Assembly (NCBI GenBank): GCA_017505165.1
Contig: JAFVPU010000217.1
Coordinates: 1 to 42,624, forward strand
Direction: 5' to 3'
Length of the DNA stretch: 42,624 nt
From: Clostridia bacterium
GTDB lineage: Bacteria > Bacillota > Clostridia > Christensenellales > UBA1242
This document shows positions 36,351-42,082 of this stretch, one piece after another (within the stretch, counting starts at the first letter, position 1; every line of letters starts with the position of its first letter). A model generated the notes under the pieces. It was not told the origin of the DNA, searched no databases, and worked only from the letters and a program-made list of their open reading frames with translations. A program made the position numbers and the translations under genes.

Positions 36351-37034
36351 ATGTACGATTACGACGAATCAGAAGCATCGTTTTTCGACGAGCTTCAGGT
36401 AGCACCTCCAGTTGCACCAATTGAAAGTCCTGCTAACCCTGTAAATCCTAATGCACCAAAAGTGCCTGGGAATATTCCTATTGGATCTCCTATGGAGTCT
36501 GGGTTTGTAACAGTTATTCCTAATGGAGAACGTAAAAAGTATGTTTGCAATATCGACTGGTTTGTTGGAAAACCAGATCCGTACATGAACATCACACATA
36601 TTCTCTATACTGCTGAACCTGGTGACGAAGTTGTGTTCAATTTGTATTCTTATGGAGGTTCTGTTGAAACAGGATGCATGATCATCAATGCTATCAAGAA
36701 TACTAAAGCGACCGTTACAACAGTGGCGTTTGGATTGTGTGCATCTATCGCTGCTATGATCTGGTCATGTGGACACATACGTGAAGTTATGCCAACCGCT
36801 ACTATCATGTACCATATGCCATCTGGTATGGTTTTTGGTAAAACAGCAGATAATGAAGAAGAATCTCGTCATATCCAAGGATACTTCAGTGAATTCATGC
36901 GTGAAGTTACTAAAGGTATCCTAACTGAAGATGAACTTGATAAGATCATCAATAAACGTATGGATATGTTTATCCCTGCAGCAACTATTCAAGCAAGACT
37001 TGCTGTAACTAAAGAGGAGAATACAAATGAGTAA
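36351..37034 (+). CDS. ClpP-family (clan SK, S14-like) serine peptidase (227 aa)
   Basis: AAAGGAG RBS. VVFNLYSYGGSVETGCMIINAIKNTKATVTTVAFGLCASIAAMIWSCG...IMYHMPSG...KRMDMFIPA aligns with E. coli ClpP [43 protein letters not shown]...VMIHQPLG...RDRFLSA. Ser, His and Asp all fall at the expected positions. It has a Pro-rich N-terminal extension. Confidence 0.7.
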   Translation: MYDYDESEASFFDELQVAPPVAPIESPANPVNPNAPKVPGNIPIGSPMESGFVTVIPNGERKKYVCNIDWFVGKPDPYMNITHILYTAEPGDEVVFNLYSYGGSVETGCMIINAIKNTKATVTTVAFGLCASIAAMIWSCGHIREVMPTATIMYHMPSGMVFGKTADNEEESRHIQGYFSEFMREVTKGILTEDELDKIINKRMDMFIPAATIQARLAVTKEENTNE

Positions 37035-37785
37035 ATTTAATCTCTTTGGTTCTGATGATCGCCCTATCGAAACTTTTGGTGAAGTAACATTCAAAGAAAG
37101 TCATGAAGAAATTATTCCATCTAACGAATCTGTTAGTTTGGAAACTATCAATGCATACGATATGAATGAGCGTAAACAGATGAGTGCTGCTATATTGAGT
37201 AACAAAAGCAACTTTTTGGATTGTGTTTGTGATGGTGGTCCTAGAAAGAAACCACTTATCTTCACAAAAACTATCTGCAAAGAAACAAAAAGCTGTTGCT
37301 GGGAGTTCTTCCTTAATTATATCTGTTTCACAGTAACCAATGATTTCATCACTAAACTCGAACAAGTTAAAGAAAATGATTGTGTTCTTATTCACGGACC
37401 TGCTTGTTGTTACACTGATGATGCTGAAGTTATTTGTGCTGCAATCAGTCGTTGTAAAGCAAAAGAAAAACTTATCAGTTCTCCTTATATCTTAGATATC
37501 GGAGCTGCTTCTATTCTGCTTACAGCAACCAAAATCATTCATTCTGTATGTAACCTCATTCGTCTCAGTCCTCCAATGGTGTCAGGAGGAGGTGCTATGC
37601 AAGATGCACGTATGACTTTTGAAAACAATGTTTACAGAAACACTATCGTTATTAAGAACTTGCTTAAAGCTGGTTTTATTACACAAGATGAATACAATCA
37701 TCTTGTCGAAGAACAAGGTGGTGTGTGTCTTCATGGTAAACGTTTGAAAGAGATCATTGATATCTTCAATCAAAAACATGCATAA
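37027..37785 (+). CDS. ClpP-like paralog, probably catalytically inactive (252 aa)
   Basis: AGAGGAGA RBS. 8-nt overlap with 36351-37034. CVLIHGPACCYTDDAEVICAAI...ILDIGAASILLTA...LIRLSPPMVSGGG...ITQDEYNHLVEEQGG.CLHGKRL follows the ClpP fold pattern. The Ser is retained in GAAS, but the His of the (M/I)xHxP motif is replaced (RLSPP). Confidence 0.5.
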   Translation: MSKFNLFGSDDRPIETFGEVTFKESHEEIIPSNESVSLETINAYDMNERKQMSAAILSNKSNFLDCVCDGGPRKKPLIFTKTICKETKSCCWEFFLNYICFTVTNDFITKLEQVKENDCVLIHGPACCYTDDAEVICAAISRCKAKEKLISSPYILDIGAASILLTATKIIHSVCNLIRLSPPMVSGGGAMQDARMTFENNVYRNTIVIKNLLKAGFITQDEYNHLVEEQGGVCLHGKRLKEIIDIFNQKHA

Positions 37786-38000: not shown

Positions 38001-39242
38001 ATGAATGTTATTAAGCGTAATGGTGATGTTGTAGAATTTGATTCTTCTAAAATTACCAAAGCCATTGAAAAAGCAAACAATAAAGTCGAAAATCGGTTCA
38101 GACTTCATATGCTCCCGAGAGATATCGCAAGAGAACTTTCAAACGATATTGGCAAACGTGAAAGCATCAGTGTTGAAGAGATTCAGGATCTTGTAGAGAA
38201 GAAACTCTATGAAGTTGGAGCTTCATTCGAACTTATCAAAGAATACGTAACTTATCGGTATCGCCGTTCGCTTGAACGTGATAAGTATAACGCTTTCATT
38301 TCAGGGATCAAAGAAAAACTCCAAGCAAAGAATGTAAAAAATCAGAATGCTAATGTTGATGAACATTCGTTTAGTGGTCGTTATGGAGAAGCAACCAACT
38401 ACATGACAAAAGAGATTGCTCTTACTACCAGACTTTCTCCTATGGCTAGAAACAATCACCTTGGAAATATGATTTATATTCACGATCTCGATCATTACGA
38501 ATTGGGAGATCACAACTGTCTCACAATTCCATTCGACGATCTTCTTAAAAACGGTTTTGAAATAAGACAGACCGATATCCGTACAGCTAGGAGCGTTGAT
38601 ACCGCATTTCAGTTATTGGCTGTTATTTTCCAGCTACAGAGTCTTAATCAGTTTGGTGGAGTCAGCTCTGGACATCTTGACCACACAATGGTACCATATG
38701 TACGTATTTCATTTTACAAACATTTCAAAGATGGTCTTGAATTCGTTGAAGAAGTAGACAAAACTGATGTCATTTGGACTAAGATTTGCGATTCTCTTTC
38801 TGTTGATGATGAAATCTACAAGTCTCACAAGAAAGCATACAATTATGCAACACGTATGACATTGAAAGAAATACGTCAAGCTGTTGAAGGAATGTTCCAT
38901 AATCTGAATTCGCTCCAAAGTAGAGCAGGTGGACAACTTCCATTCACTTCAATCAACTATGGTACTTGTACTAATACTGAAGGTAGATGGATAATCAAAA
39001 ACCTTCTTGAAGTTAATATTGAAGGTATCGGTAAGAACAAAAGAACTCCCATATTTCCATGTTCTATCTTCCAGTGTATGAAAGGTGTTAATCGACATCC
39101 GGGTGATCCAAATTACGATATGTTCAGGTTGGCACTTAAATCAACAGCATCTAGACTTTACCCCAATTATGTAAATTGTGATTGGTCTGGTAATGCTGGT
39201 TATGATATCAATGATCCAAAAACATACATGTCCACAATGGGT
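38001..39242 (+). CDS. nrdD: anaerobic ribonucleoside-triphosphate reductase NrdD, exon 1 of 3 (414 codons)
   Basis: GAAGGAG RBS. ATP-cone N-terminus MNVIKRNGDVVEFDSSKITKAIEKA. FPCSIFQCMKGVNRHPGDPNYDMFRLALKSTASRLYPN is typical of NrdD. The exon ends ...STMG (GGT, last base T 39242). The remaining 11 codons of the track ORF are intron sequence. Confidence 0.85.
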
Positions 39243-39497
39243 AAGTGTAAATGCAGCCCATTTAAAACTTTCTGAACCTCGCCCGAGGGTGTAGTAGTGT
39301 TAATCTACTGCTAACGGTTAGGACTCTATGAGTTGAGACCGTGCTAAATTCTACATATGTAGATAAATGTGTATCGACTATCCCCGATGAATGTAAGGGA
39401 GTAGGGTGTGAGATAGGCACACACTCGAAGCGGAAAGCTATATTAGTATTAATATAGAAGATATAGTCAGTGTCATCAGTGATGATGAATTAAAACG
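39243..39497 (+). mobile_element. group I intron (IA2, T4 td-like core), ORF-less, 255 nt
   Basis: The 5' exon ends in U. Exon AAUGGGU (39236-39242) pairs with intron GCCCAUU (39256-39262), giving the U.G wobble at the splice site. The intron ends in G 39497. Core strings CCGUGCUAAAUU, AUAAAUG, CGACUAUCCC, GGGAGUAGGGU, ACUCGAA and AGAUAUAGUC match the T4 td intron as I recall it. P6 is a simple hairpin, ucuacauauguaga. Confidence 0.8.
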
Positions 39498-39995
39498 TGC
39501 AGAACAACCAACGGCTTTGATATCAACGGTCTCGGACAGCAAAAAGATGGTCGTGGTAATATCTGTCCTGTAACTATCATTCTTCCTGAGCTTGCTATGC
39601 AGGTTAAAGCAAGAGAATACAAAAAACTATCGAGTAAAGATAACATTTCTTTGTTCCTTGAACTTCTTGATAAAAAGATTCATGAAGCCAAAGACATGCT
39701 TCTTGAAAGATTTGAGTGGATATGTTCTCAATCTCCTGAATGTGCCAAATTTATGTACGATAACAACGTGATGGCAGGTTATGTTCCTGAAGAAGGAATT
39801 AGAAGTGCTCTCAAACATGGTACAATTGTCATCGGTCAGCTTGGTCTTGCTGAGTGTTTACAAATATTGGTTGGTTGTGATCATACTGAACCACTTGGTA
39901 TGAAATTAGCAAAACTTATTGAACAACTTTTTAAAGATCGTTGTGCTGAATTCAAACAACAATATAAATTAAACTTTGGTGTTTATTTTACCCCT
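39498..39995 (+). CDS. nrdD: NrdD exon 2 of 3 (166 codons)
   Basis: Starts TGC AGA (CRTTNGFDINGLGQQKDGRGNICPVTIILPELA...), restoring MGCR across the junction. It is in frame with track ORF 39597-40031. It ends ...FGVYFTP (CCT, last base T 39995). Confidence 0.85.
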
Positions 39996-40975
39996 GAATT
40001 CTGTGGGGGCTGCTACAGAGATGTAGCATGAGAAAGTCGGCTAACCGAGAAAACTCGGGTGTGCTCATTATGAGTGCTAACAGGGAACCCAAGAACCCTG
40101 TGCTAAATAGAAACACAACAAAGGATTTGTTAAATGAAAATCGAAAAGATACCTGACGATGCTGTACTTATTCCTGGAACCAAAGATGAATATATCGATA
40201 GACAAGGAAATGTCTATGGACATGATCATCGATCAGGACACAAGGGTGAACCGTTTATACGGGAACAAAACACCGTACATGGTTATAAGTACACAAAAAT
40301 ACGTGGAGTATCTACGAGAGTTCATAGAGTTGTTGCAGAAGTCTTTATTCCAAACCCAGATAACTTACCGATTGTTATGCACAAAAACAATAACAAAGCA
40401 GACAACCGGGTAGAGAATTTAAAATGGGGTACCATTAAAGAAAATACGCAACAAGCAGTTGACGATGGATTAATGGTGAACGCTAAAGGTGCTGAGGATT
40501 CACAAAGCATCCCTTGCGACATGTATGATACAGTTACAAACAAACGCATTGCTTCATTTGGTTCCACATCAGAAGCAATGCGTGCAACAGGTATCAATAA
40601 AGTAACAATATGTGCCCAAATCCGCTCATCTGCACCAATACGTAAACCTGTCTACTTCACGCGCAAAGACGAAGGAAGTAGACCTCATGACATTGTAGTG
40701 GCGACCGATTTAAAAACTGGTGAAGAAATTGGAAGATATCCAAACGTAGGACGTGCCTCGGCAGCAACTGGCATTCCTCAAAACACCATTGCTCAACAAT
40801 GTCAAACTGGAAAACGTAAATGGTCTAAAACAAACGTGGTATTTTCACGTGTGTTTCTTAAAGGTGAAGAGATCATCGAAAGCGATAAGCGAGTAGAGTA
40901 GTGTATGAGTGAAACTCTCATATGCGAAAGACCGACACCCACCAGTGCGGTGGGATAAAATATGATCCATTAAAG
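39996..40975 (+). mobile_element. group I intron carrying an HNH homing endonuclease gene, 980 nt
   Basis: The 5' exon ends in U. Exon CCCCU pairs with intron GGGGG (40005-40009), including a U.G pair. GCUAACAGGGAACC...CCCUGUGCUAAAU resembles td CUAAACGGGGAACC...CCCGUGCUAAAU. The ORF follows in the position of the P6 loop. The intron ends in G 40975. Removing it restores TP|AENLC. Confidence 0.75.
40134..40901 (+). CDS. intron-encoded HNH homing endonuclease, I-HmuI-like (255 aa)
   Basis: AAAGGA RBS. VHRVVAEVFIPNPDNLPIVMHKNNNKADNRVENLKWGTIKEN is the HNH_3 / I-HmuI-type motif. It is followed by two helix-turn-helix-like modules (GSTSEAMRATGINKVTICAQI and PNVGRASAATGIPQNTIAQQC), NUMOD/IENR-like. 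Confidence 0.8.
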   Translation: MKIEKIPDDAVLIPGTKDEYIDRQGNVYGHDHRSGHKGEPFIREQNTVHGYKYTKIRGVSTRVHRVVAEVFIPNPDNLPIVMHKNNNKADNRVENLKWGTIKENTQQAVDDGLMVNAKGAEDSQSIPCDMYDTVTNKRIASFGSTSEAMRATGINKVTICAQIRSSAPIRKPVYFTRKDEGSRPHDIVVATDLKTGEEIGRYPNVGRASAATGIPQNTIAQQCQTGKRKWSKTNVVFSRVFLKGEEIIESDKRVE

Positions 40976-41443
40976 GCAGAAAACCTCTGTTATACAGCTA
41001 TGCTTAAGTTCAAAGAAAAATGGGGTGAAATACCAAACGTTTCAGATAGAGACTTCTTTACTAATTCAATACATGTTCCTGTGTGGAAAAAGATGACTCC
41101 TTTTGAAAAGATCGATATTGAATCTCAGCTCACAGGATACAGCAATGCTGGATGTATAACTTACATTGAACTAGATTCTAGTTGTAAAAATAACATCGAT
41201 TCTATCGAATCTATTGTCAATTACGCAATGGATAAAGATATTCCATATTTCGCTATCAATGTACCAAATGACCAGTGCTCAGAATGTGGATACATTGATG
41301 AAATAGGAACCAACTGTCCTGTATGTGGAAACGATGATATCAAACGTCTTCGCAGAGTCACAGGATACTTAACAGGAAACTACACTACTGCTTTCAACTA
41401 TGGAAAGCAGAAAGAAGTTGAAGCTCGCGTTAAACATTGCTAA
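40976..41443 (+). CDS. nrdD: NrdD exon 3 of 3 (155 codons plus stop)
   Basis: Starts GCA GAA AAC (AENLCYTAMLKF...). Contains the CSEC...CPVC zinc ribbon and the glycyl-radical motif RRVTGYLTG. The upstream 18 codons of track ORF 40922-41443 are intron sequence. Confidence 0.85.
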   Translation, partial: AENLCYTAMLKFKEKWGEIPNVSDRDFFTNSIHVPVWKKMTPFEKIDIESQLTGYSNAGCITYIELDSSCKNNIDSIESIVNYAMDKDIPYFAINVPNDQCSECGYIDEIGTNCPVCGNDDIKRLRRVTGYLTGNYTTAFNYGKQKEVEARVKHC

Positions 41444-41453
41444 CATACATATT

Positions 41454-41488
41454 AAGAACCCTAGTCAATGAAATCGACTAGGGTTCTT
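41454..41488 (+). terminator. hairpin H15 with U-tract between nrdD and nrdG
   Basis: aagaaccctagtc-aatgaaatc-gactagggttctt, followed by ttttattt. Confidence 0.8.
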
Positions 41489-41506
41489 TTATTTAAAGGA
41501 GACAAA

Positions 41507-42082
41507 ATGAACTATTGTGAAATCAATGCATGTGATATCGCGAATGGAGATGGTGTGAGAGTATCGTTATTCGTCTCTGGATGCGATAAAAAATGTAAGG
41601 GTTGTTTTAACCCTTCTACGTGGGACCCTAAGTATGGGAGATTGTGGTCTGAAGAGACTTATGATCTACTCCGCACGATGCTCATGAAACCATATATTAA
41701 AGGTCTTACTCTTCTTGGTGGAGATCCTTTTTTTTCTGGTAATAGAAGTGATATATCTAATCTTCTTAGACTACTCAGAAGTGATATCAAAGAGTTCTCT
41801 ACTGGAGAGAAAGATATCTGGATGTATACTGGTTATCTCTATGAAGATCTTGTTCAGTATGATCAAGAAGAAAGAAAGAAGTTTGGTTGTCAGATAATCA
41901 ACGGAGAAGTTCATACAGGTTCAAGACTCATACTTCACTACATCGATGTTCTTGTTGATGGCCCGTTCATTGAAGAACAGAAAGATCTTAGTCTTAAGTT
42001 CAGAGGTTCTTCTAATCAGAGAATCATCGATGTCAAGAAATCTTTAAAAGAAGGCAAGGTTGTGTTGTACTATGGAAAATAG
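41507..42082 (+). CDS. nrdG: anaerobic ribonucleotide reductase activating protein (radical SAM) NrdG (191 aa)
   Basis: I trimmed ORF track entry 41468-42082 to ATG 41507 (MNYCEINACDIANGDGVRVSLFVSGCDKKCKGCFNP), which has AAAGGAG upstream. It has the CxxxCxxC cluster, GGDP, and DGPF...FRGSSNQRIID. The longer track start lies inside terminator H15. Confidence 0.85.
   Translation: MNYCEINACDIANGDGVRVSLFVSGCDKKCKGCFNPSTWDPKYGRLWSEETYDLLRTMLMKPYIKGLTLLGGDPFFSGNRSDISNLLRLLRSDIKEFSTGEKDIWMYTGYLYEDLVQYDQEERKKFGCQIINGEVHTGSRLILHYIDVLVDGPFIEEQKDLSLKFRGSSNQRIIDVKKSLKEGKVVLYYGK

What the first reader, a model, noticed from the sequence alone, without database searches (positions are those of the whole stretch)
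38001..41443. nrdD is a three-exon gene interrupted at two catalytic-core motifs
Three same-strand ORF pieces translate to consecutive parts of a class III RNR: ATP cone; ...STMG / CRTTNGF...GRGNICPVTIILP...FGVYFTP / AENLCYTA...; zinc ribbon CSEC...CPVC; and glycyl-radical RRVTGYLTG. Joining 39242 to 39498 and 39995 to 40976 keeps the frame and recreates the conserved MGCR and TPAE strings. Both upstream exons end in T and both intervening sequences end in G. Intron 1 sits immediately before the Cys codon of MGCR, which as I recall is the finger-loop radical Cys of class III RNRs. Such highly conserved DNA is what homing introns typically target. T4 has a single intron in nrdD, so two in one nrdD with different ORF content is noteworthy but not unprecedented for phage nucleotide-metabolism genes.
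Basis: partly seen in the sequence, partly recalled or inferred. Interest (0 to 1): 0.65.

Follow-up and report, generated by a model that had tools for sequence, protein, structure and literature searches.

The report
Phage nrdD with two introns
The anaerobic ribonucleotide reductase gene of this uncultured gut phage is split into three coding pieces by two self-splicing-type (group I) introns, one carrying a homing endonuclease gene; the reading is correct, but this is an ordinary case of a well-known habit of phage nucleotide-metabolism genes.

Summary
Exons 38001-39242, 39498-39995 and 40976-41443 join in frame to a 735-aa NrdD. It aligns end to end, with no gap at either junction, with a solved NrdD (E 7e-113).

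Both inserts have group I intron anatomy of the T4 sunY (IA2) kind:
- P1 with a U.G pair at the 5' splice site
- P10
- P3 to P8, with P7.1 and P7.2
- a terminal G

Intron 1 (255 nt, no ORF) gets a sub-threshold Rfam hit (29 bits, E 6e-5). Its fold is backed by 28 compensatory pairs among relatives. Intron 2 (980 nt) holds a 255-aa HNH/NUMOD1 endonuclease gene in the P6a loop. Rfam does not detect it. Three IMG/VR relatives keep the helices tabulated for them, with different sequences.

Contigs from related strains in other gut metagenomes lack exactly 39243-39497, exactly 39996-40975, or both.

Splicing itself is not shown, because no RNA data were found.

The arrangement is not new. The same two sites are interrupted in cultured coliphages (Avunavirus) and in three IMG/VR contigs. 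Site 1 is interrupted in Lactococcus phage 949. Site 2 carries a homologous endonuclease in Enterococcus phage EF1. Published work already describes split, multi-intron phage nrdD genes.

Verdict: new member of a known kind, low interest.

The parts
38001..39242 (+). nrdD exon 1 (414 codons: ATP cone and N-terminal barrel half; ends ...STMG, last base T)
39243..39497 (+). Intron 1: 255-nt ORF-less group I (IA2, sunY-like) intron. P1 39236-42/39256-62; P10 39252-55/39498-501; P3 39268-74/39431-37; extra hairpins 39277-88 and 39293-309; P4-P5 39314-42; P6a 39349-64; P7 39376-80/39464-68; P7.1 39381-400; P7.2 39404-26; P8 39438-57; P9 39473-88; terminal G 39497
   Evidence: RF00028 29 bits, E 6e-5; 88.6% identity to the T4 nrdD intron core over 44 nt; covariation; helix check
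39498..39995 (+). nrdD exon 2 (166 codons, CRTTNGF...FGVYFTP; starts with the Cys equivalent to T4 Cys290)
39996..40975 (+). Intron 2: 980-nt group I intron carrying an ORF. P1 39991-95/40005-09; P10 39999-40004/40976-81; P2 40011-28; P3 40036-41/40931-36; extra hairpins 40045-58 and 40063-75; P4 40080-101; P6a 40109-16/40851-58; P7 40871-75/40963-67; P7.1 40875-86; P7.2 40901-25; P8 40938-54; terminal G 40975; no P9 hairpin
   Evidence: helix table against three relatives; family motif scan; relatives at the same site
40134..40901 (+). Intron-encoded HNH homing endonuclease gene (255 aa, HNH_3 and NUMOD1). AAAGGA lies 8 nt before the ATG. The last ~17 codons overlap P6a', P6', P7 and P7.1
   Evidence: Pfam; 48% identity to the HNH endonuclease in the nrdD intron of Enterococcus phage EF1
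40976..41443 (+). nrdD exon 3 (155 codons plus stop: AENLCY..., Zn ribbon CSEC...CPVC, glycyl-radical RRVTGYLTG)
41468..42082 (+). nrdG (radical-SAM activase), the functional partner of nrdD
   Evidence: Pfam Fer4_12 147 bits

Best explanation
nrdD of this uncultured gut phage is one gene carrying two independent group I introns of the phage IA2 (T4 sunY-like) kind.

Inferred mechanism. The gene is transcribed as one pre-mRNA. Each intron folds into its ribozyme core. An external guanosine attacks after the U of the U.G pair in P1 (after 39242 and after 39995). The freed 5' exon then attacks after the terminal G (39497 and 40975), guided by P10. This yields an mRNA for a 735-aa class III ribonucleotide reductase, which NrdG (encoded downstream) would activate.

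Intron 2 also carries an I-HmuI-like HNH/NUMOD1 endonuclease gene in the loop of P6a. At the DNA level this enzyme would nick or cut intronless nrdD alleles at the TP|AE site during mixed infection, and repair would copy the intron in (homing). Intron 1 has no endonuclease gene. It is a passenger that either lost its gene or spreads by recombination or co-conversion.

What is shown:
- exon continuity
- intron boundaries
- ribozyme helices and their covariation
- presence/absence polymorphism in DNA

What is inferred:
- actual splicing
- endonuclease activity and its target
For: Exons and boundaries:
- The spliced ORF is a full NrdD.
- Intronless relatives and intronless alleles lack exactly the two inserts. 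X4 lacks both, X5 lacks only intron 2, and X16 lacks intron 1.
- X1-X3 contigs bridge every junction, so this is not a misassembly.

Intron 1:
- RF00028 E 6e-5.
- Core 88.6% identical to the T4 nrdD intron, which itself scores 105 bits.
- 43 of 44 modelled pairs form in the window copy.
- Across 7 family members, 96.7% of cells are paired and 28 pairs have compensatory changes. No shuffle out of 500 reaches this, and slid controls give at most 9.

Intron 2:
- P1, P10, P2, P4, P6a, P7, P7.1, P7.2 and P8 are fully complementary, and P3 forms 5 of 6 pairs.
- P2, P3, P4, P6a and P8 have different sequences but stay paired in L342, L291 and L335.
- The window's P7 is GAUCA/UGAUC against GACUA/UAGUC in relatives, a double compensatory change also seen in L108, L126 and L176.
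- Enterococcus phage EF1 has a homologous HNH gene in an intron at the identical CCT|GCA site.

Exon flanks:
- The wobble bases next to the splice sites fit the guide sequences in the intron-bearing allele (GGT|TGCA; CCT|GCAGAA). They differ in intronless alleles (GGA TGT CGT; CCC GCC GAA).
Against: - No RNA evidence: no metatranscriptome holding this phage was found.
- Intron 1 is below Rfam's gathering score, and intron 2 has no Rfam hit at all.
- Intron 2's lineage has a very short P5 and no P9 hairpin. Its endonuclease ORF runs through P6a', P7 and P7.1, so translation and folding compete. Efficient self-splicing without a helper is not guaranteed.
- P3 of intron 2 has one C.A mismatch.
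- The covariation set for intron 2 is only four sequences, aligned by hand.
Confidence: 0.9

Rival explanations
1. Intron 2 (and possibly intron 1) is a real group I intron but no longer splices on its own. It would need a protein helper, either a host or phage RNA chaperone or its own endonuclease acting as a maturase, or it splices only poorly.
For: The lineage has a 1-3 bp P5 and no P9 hairpin. There is a C.A mismatch in P3. The ORF overlaps P6a' to P7.1.
Against: The same reduced architecture is kept in L342, L291 and L335 with compensatory changes, which points to selection on the RNA fold. The exons are intact and conserved. IMG/VR holds ORF-less introns of the same broad family as short as 190 nt (L197), so small size is normal for this family.
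Confidence: 0.12
2. The gene is a dead, fragmented nrdD. The inserts are decayed mobile elements that are not removed, so the three ORFs are pseudogene pieces.
For: No RNA data. Rfam scores are below threshold.
Against: The 735 codons contain no stops or frameshifts and align full length with the catalytic Cys, the Zn ribbon and the glycyl-radical motif intact. Both ribozyme cores are complete. The guide sequences match the flanking exons. The same allele occurs in several samples at 99-100% identity. nrdG is intact.
Confidence: 0.04
3. Assembly artefact: the inserts come from other phages in the metagenome and were joined in by the assembler.
For: The window is a contig binned into a fragmented MAG (230 contigs, 5.35% contamination), and related strains co-occur.
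Against: Independent Logan contigs from runs X1, X2 and X3 cross all four exon-intron borders with 0-1 differences. X10 and X14 carry intron 2 in about 95% identical strains.
Confidence: 0.01

Closest known systems
Phage T4 nrdD (sunY) group IA2 intron with I-TevII
   Same: Same host gene. Same intron subclass anatomy (P7.1/P7.2, GAUAUAGUC J8/7-P7', GNRA-capped P9). The 44-nt core is 88.6% identical to intron 1.
   Different: T4's intron sits about 114 codons upstream (codon 180...AYE|YEVN...), and T4 MGCRS is uninterrupted. It carries a GIY-YIG endonuclease gene (annotation). T4 has one nrdD intron, not two.
Escherichia Avunavirus phages 24-2-1, 19-1-2, 18-1-2 and vB_EcoM_TH18: nrdD annotated as three CDS
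   Same: Two introns at the identical nucleotide positions (GGT|TGY and CCT|GCA). Their intron 1 scores 79.8 bits on RF00028.
   Different: Both of their introns lack ORFs. Their site-2 intron belongs to another lineage (with a P9 hairpin and a different P4-P6). Their NrdD is only about 30-44% identical.
Enterococcus phage EF1/EF5 nrdD intron with HNH homing endonuclease
   Same: Intron at the same CCT|GCA (TP|AE) site. The endonuclease is 48% identical over 95% of its length. It has the same extra hairpins between P3 and P4 and the same 3' core strings.
   Different: EF1 keeps a P9 hairpin, and its ORF ends before P6a'. tblastn found no break at site 1.
Lactococcus phage 949 nrdD 'non-coding intron' (Dwivedi et al. 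2013, PMC3653736)
   Same: ORF-less intron at the identical GGT|TGC site. Its 5' part is 78.7% identical to intron 1.
   Different: 320 nt with a larger P5 and P7.2. Exon 2 of 949 also carries intein/HEG remnants (per the paper). No site-2 intron.
Staphylococcus phage Twort nrdE with two self-splicing introns, and Jug gut jumbo phages with nrdD in up to four pieces
   Same: Several group I introns in one RNR gene, next to conserved residues, one with an HNH endonuclease (cited in PMC3653736). RNA-seq proof of splicing exists for Jug phage nrdD (PMC12880540).
   Different: Different genes or phage lineages. I did not compare sequences with them.

Membership tests
Group I intron (intron 1, 39243-39497) | P1 pairs the 5' exon end with an internal guide, with a U.G pair at the splice site | tested here: met
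   AAUGGGU (39236-42) pairs with GCCCAUU (39256-62), 7/7, with U39242.G39256
Group I intron (intron 1, 39243-39497) | Terminal G and P10 with the 3' exon | tested here: met
   G39497; UGCA 39252-55 pairs with UGCA 39498-501
Group I intron (intron 1, 39243-39497) | Conserved core P3-P8 with the P7 pseudoknot, supported by covariation | tested here: met
   43/44 pairs form in the window. Across the family, 28 compensatory pairs and 0/500 shuffles as high. P7 itself is invariant, so it is uninformative.
Group I intron (intron 1, 39243-39497) | Rfam RF00028 at or above the gathering score (50 bits) | tested here: not met
   29 bits, E 6e-5 in a 2-kb search; no hit at gathering threshold. The model also misses the ORF-less intron of phage 949 and the Avunavirus site-2 intron, so its sensitivity is low for this lineage.
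Group I intron (intron 2, 39996-40975) | P1 with U.G, P10, terminal G | tested here: met
   CCCCU/GGGGG 5/5 with U39995.G40005; UUCUGU/GCAGAA 6/6; G40975
Group I intron (intron 2, 39996-40975) | Core helices P3, P4, P6, P7, P8 kept by compensatory change in relatives | tested here: met
   Helix table for the window, L342, L291 and L335. P2, P3, P4, P6a and P8 differ in sequence and stay paired. The window's P7 is GAUCA/UGAUC. The set is only four sequences, aligned by hand.
Group I intron (intron 2, 39996-40975) | Match to Rfam RF00028 | tested here: not met
   No hit even at E 10. The 768-nt ORF splits the core, and an ORF-deleted sequence could not be given to the tool.
Group I intron (both) | GTP-dependent self-splicing, or ligated exons in RNA | not testable with these tools
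   No RNA run holds the phage. X16 turned out to be a DNA-level variant.
Subgroup IA2 (T4 td/sunY type) | Extra P7.1/P7.2 hairpins between P7 and P3' | tested here: met
   Intron 1: 39381-400 and 39404-26, in register with T4 sunY. Intron 2: 40875-86 and 40901-25. That these hairpins define IA2 is from my own knowledge of the Michel-Westhof classification.
HNH homing endonuclease (I-HmuI-like) | HNH catalytic motif plus a NUMOD DNA-binding module, encoded inside an intron | tested here: met
   HNH_3 34 bits (cut-off 24.8) and NUMOD1 31.8 bits (cut-off 22.8). The ORF lies in the P6a loop. Cleavage activity was not tested.
Class III ribonucleotide reductase NrdD | NRDD barrel, ATP cone, finger-loop Cys, Zn ribbon, C-terminal glycyl-radical motif, adjacent NrdG | tested here: met
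   Pfam NRDD 478 bits and ATP-cone 65 bits. Full-length alignment to 8p23. MGC corresponds to T4 Cys290. CSEC..CPVC and RRVTGY are present. nrdG is downstream.

The most novel reading that the evidence does not exclude
Both introns, and many relatives (Enterococcus phage EF1, L342, L291 intron 1, L189, L191, L208, L230, phage 949), carry a conserved two-hairpin module with near-invariant linkers: P3 - (U)AA - hairpin - GUGU/UGUG - hairpin - GC UAA - P4. It is inserted in J3/4, where canonical group I introns have only 2-3 nt that make triples with P6. Minimal members (L197, L291 intron 2, L335) lack it. It may be an undescribed peripheral domain that marks a widespread phage IA2 sub-lineage which Rfam largely misses.
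Probability: 0.25. Interest if true: 0.4.

Novelty: new member of a known kind. Interest (0 to 1): 0.2.

Why it matters
The main value is for annotation. Gene callers will report three nrdD fragments plus an 'HNH endonuclease' where there is one functional gene.

The locus also adds a clean natural example of two points:
- Intron presence/absence polymorphism among near-identical gut phage strains: both introns, one, none, or a different intron at the same site.
- Recurrent invasion of the same two conserved nrdD codon boundaries by different intron lineages. One boundary sits directly beside the codon of the thiyl-radical Cys.

It does not open a new question. Multi-intron phage RNR genes, and homing into conserved catalytic sequence, are established.

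Tried and rejected
- Rfam at gathering threshold over the whole window: nothing.
- Megablast of the locus against 50,697 phage records: no near relative.
- blastn of intron 2 against phages hit only the HNH coding part, not the ribozyme flanks.
- The search for related loci with the endonuclease returned only short HNH-motif matches, no close homologues.
- About two thirds of the hits to the pattern ATGGGT..GCCCATTTAAAA were not nrdD introns. Only 35 could be confirmed.
- RNA search: the one candidate run (X16, kind unknown) proved to be a strain lacking intron 1 at the DNA level (GGA TGT CGT codons), not spliced RNA.
- My first hand assignments were wrong and were dropped:
  - I took UGCU/AGCG as P3 of intron 1. 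RNAalifold and covariation give CUUUCUG/CGGAAAG.
  - I took UAAAUGAAAAUCGAAAAG at the ORF start as the P7 region of intron 2. The real P7 is at 40871-75, found by alignment with the family motif.
  - I took GAGUAGAG as P3' of intron 2. It is the P7.1/P7.2 linker.
- Intein, group II intron and translational bypass were considered and rejected. The inserts have stops in the exon frame, no reverse transcriptase or intein motifs, and complete group I cores.
- A scan of the window for further IA2 cores found only these two.
Full report
**1. Observation**

ORF listing and sequence show three same-strand ORF pieces flanking two inserts. Joining 38001-39242, 39498-39995 and 40976-41443 gives 1242 + 498 + 468 nt, each divisible by three, and a 735-aa ORF.

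The product matches Pfam NRDD (478 bits), ATP-cone (65 bits) and Gly_radical. It aligns over residues 2-734 with the solved NrdD chain 8p23_A (E 7e-113). There is no gap at ...STMG|CRT... or ...FTP|AEN....

nrdG follows at 41468-42082. Both 5' exons end in T and both inserts end in G. I numbered T4 NrdD so that the radical glycine is G580. On that numbering the Cys of MGCR is Cys290 and TPAE is 443-446. Intron 1 therefore sits directly before the codon of the Cys that the T4 literature assigns to the finger loop. That assignment is from my own knowledge of Logan et al. 1999.

**2. Where the window comes from**

The window is an entire 42.6-kb contig binned into a 1.53-Mb, 230-contig gut MAG. 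Earlier notes of this scan call it a phiKZ-like jumbo phage. I did not test that.

The closest cultured phage NrdD is from Thomasclavelia phage TR-TP1/TP2, at 61% identity.

**3. Boundaries confirmed by DNA of relatives**

Eighty IMG/VR relatives at 61-67% identity (best matching segment) carry an uninterrupted gene. Logan contigs from other gut metagenomes show the following:

| Run | What it carries |
|---|---|
| X1-X3 | The window allele, with contigs crossing every exon-intron border |
| X4 (~87% identical) | Skips 39242-39503 with 7 letters between, and 39995-40990 with 16 letters between. These are exactly the exon letters expected if 39243-39497 and 39996-40975 are absent |
| X5 | Has intron 1 but lacks intron 2 exactly (86 exon letters between 39991 and 41058) |
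| X16 | Lacks intron 1 (GGATGTCGT before 39504) and has a different sequence after 39999, i.e. another insert at site 2 |
| X10, X14 | Carry intron 2 with its ORF at about 95% identity |

This is the presence/absence pattern expected of mobile introns. It also rules out misassembly.

The wobble bases next to the sites differ between alleles. The intron-bearing allele has GGT|TGC AGA and CCT|GCA GAA. Intronless alleles have GGA TGT CGT and CCC GCC GAA. The intron-bearing versions are the ones that pair with the guide sequences.

**4. Intron 1 (39243-39497, 255 nt, no ORF)**

- RF00028 matches 39222-39489 at 29 bits, E 6e-5. This is below the gathering score of 50.
- The core at 39364-39407 is 88.6% identical to the T4 nrdD (sunY) intron. 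The 5' part is 78.7% identical to the intron of Lactococcus phage 949 nrdD.
- T4's intron scores 105 bits, and the site-1 intron of the Avunavirus coliphage scores 79.8 bits.
- I collected 35 site-1 introns from IMG/VR: 14 ORF-less (190-322 nt) and 21 with ORFs.
- An alignment of the window intron with six distinct ORF-less relatives gave an RNAalifold consensus of 41 pairs, 28 of them with compensatory changes.
- After adding P7 as a pseudoknot, 96.7% of cells pair. No shuffle out of 500 reaches the observed covariation, and slid controls give at most 9 compensatory pairs.
- In the window copy 43 of 44 pairs form.
- P1 (AAUGGGU/GCCCAUU with U.G), P10 (UGCA/UGCA), P6a, P8 and a GUGA-capped P9 are all present.

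**5. Intron 2 (39996-40975, 980 nt)**

Rfam finds nothing. The ORF at 40134-40901 encodes an HNH_3 plus NUMOD1 protein. Its best relative (48% identity, 95% coverage) is the HNH endonuclease annotated as 'Phage intron' between two nrdD pieces of Enterococcus phage EF1. That intron sits at the identical CCT|GCA site.

The 3' part of intron 2 carries the strings AUCGAAAG...CGAGUAGAGUA. In that family P7 is usually GACU.../...AGUC. A few members (L108, L126, L176) have GAUC/GAUC, as the window does. This is a double compensatory change.

Three IMG/VR contigs belong to the same lineage at the same nrdD site: L342, L291 (the same contig as L128/L334) and L335.

| Helix | Window intron 2 |
|---|---|
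| P1 | 5/5 |
| P10 | 6/6 |
| P2 | 7/7 |
| P3 | 5/6 |
| P4 | 6/6 |
| P6a | 8/8; encloses most of the ORF |
| P7 | 5/5 |
| P8 | 6/6 |

P2, P3, P4, P6a and P8 have different sequences in the four introns yet stay complementary.

The lineage has a minimal P5 and no P9 hairpin. The last ~17 codons of the ORF run through P6a', P6', P7 and P7.1, and the stop codon abuts P7.2. An AAAGGA lies 8 nt upstream of the ATG.

**6. Mechanism**

The best-supported reading is a single pre-mRNA from which both ribozymes excise themselves by the standard two-step guanosine-initiated reaction. Intron 2 would be mobile through its HNH endonuclease. Intron 1 would be an endonuclease-less passenger.

Splicing and cleavage are inferred, not shown. 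Because of the reduced P5/P9 and the ORF-core overlap, I give about 0.12 to intron 2 needing a helper. A pseudogene reading (0.04) is contradicted by the intact, conserved exons and cores.

**7. Comparison with what is known**

T4's nrdD intron is of the same subclass but at another site. It sits at codon 180, about 114 codons upstream, and carries a GIY-YIG gene.

| Site | Where it is also interrupted |
|---|---|
| Site 1 (GGT\|TGY) | Lactococcus phage 949; Avunavirus coliphages; at least 35 IMG/VR contigs |
| 4 nt upstream of site 1 | Thomasclavelia phage TR-TP2, with an HNH gene |
| Site 2 (CCT\|GCA) | Avunavirus coliphages; EF1; L086, L090, L132, L152, L171, L183, L291, L335, L342 |
| Both sites together | Avunavirus phages; L132; L171; L291 |

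Other nrdD intron sites (about aa 175, 219|220 and 311-313) also occur.

Published work already covers this ground:
- nrdD is the most frequently split phage RNR gene (PMC3653736).
- Phage 949 has a 'non-coding intron' in nrdD (PMC3653736).
- Twort nrdE has two self-splicing introns next to conserved residues (cited in PMC3653736).
- Gut jumbo phages have nrdD in up to four pieces, with RNA-seq proof of splicing (PMC12880540).

This scan's own notes list many multi-intron nrdD genes.

**8. Verdict**

The feature is a new member of a known kind, and interest is low (0.2).

The one thing I could not place in the literature is a conserved pair of hairpins inserted between P3 and P4 in both introns and many relatives. 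I record it as the novel case at modest odds.

Noticed in passing
39277-39311 and 40045-40078; also L342, L291 intron 1, L344 (EF1), L189, L191, L208, L230: Two extra hairpins with near-invariant linkers (AA - hairpin - GUGU/UGUG - hairpin - GC UAA) sit between P3 and P4, inside what is normally the 2-3 nt J3/4. Both stems covary. L197, L291 intron 2 and L335 lack the module. I found no description of it (one literature search).
   Followed up: partly
window 39996 onward, as seen in run X16: A 98-99% identical strain lacks intron 1. After ...CCCCTGAAT it continues with ATCTGCGGGCGGCGTAAGAGTGATCTTACG. This is a different insert at the same TP|AE site, so two intron variants compete for one site among near-identical phages.
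   Followed up: partly
39240-39503 and 39993-40981, compared with intronless alleles in X4, X5 and X16: Synonymous bases flanking both sites differ between intron-bearing alleles (GGT|TGC AGA; CCT|GCA) and intronless alleles (GGA TGT CGT; CCC GCC). The intron-bearing versions are the ones that form P1/P10. This fits co-conversion or selection for guide pairing.
   Followed up: partly
L001 (Thomasclavelia phage TR-TP2) 4247-5125: The closest cultured relative has one HNH-bearing intron 4 nt upstream of site 1 (ACC AT|G GGT TGT) and none at site 2. It is annotated as two NrdD CDS plus an HNH endonuclease.
   Followed up: partly
L335 / L333 (IMG/VR), intron at nrdD site 2: The homologous endonuclease ORF is broken by an in-frame stop (only a 113-aa C-terminal ORF remains) while the ribozyme helices stay intact. 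This looks like a stage in the homing-endonuclease decay cycle.
   Followed up: no
IMG/VR loci L088, L095, L189, L230, L245, L249: Related nrdD genes are interrupted at further positions (about aa 175, 219|220 and 311-313 of the window protein), giving three or more exons.
   Followed up: no
L003 (Lactococcus phage 949) 3326-5575: The second nrdD CDS is 749 aa, far longer than the ~320 aa expected downstream of site 1. The NrdD match stops at ...VVTIQRV (query residue 708), so the glycyl-radical GY motif is not matched there, and about 1.2 kb more follows in the same ORF. The literature attributes this to intein/HEG remnants (PMC3653736).
   Followed up: no
36351-37785: Two overlapping ORFs lie just upstream of nrdD. 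The first matches Pfam CLP_protease (63.8 bits). The second has no Pfam hit.
   Followed up: no
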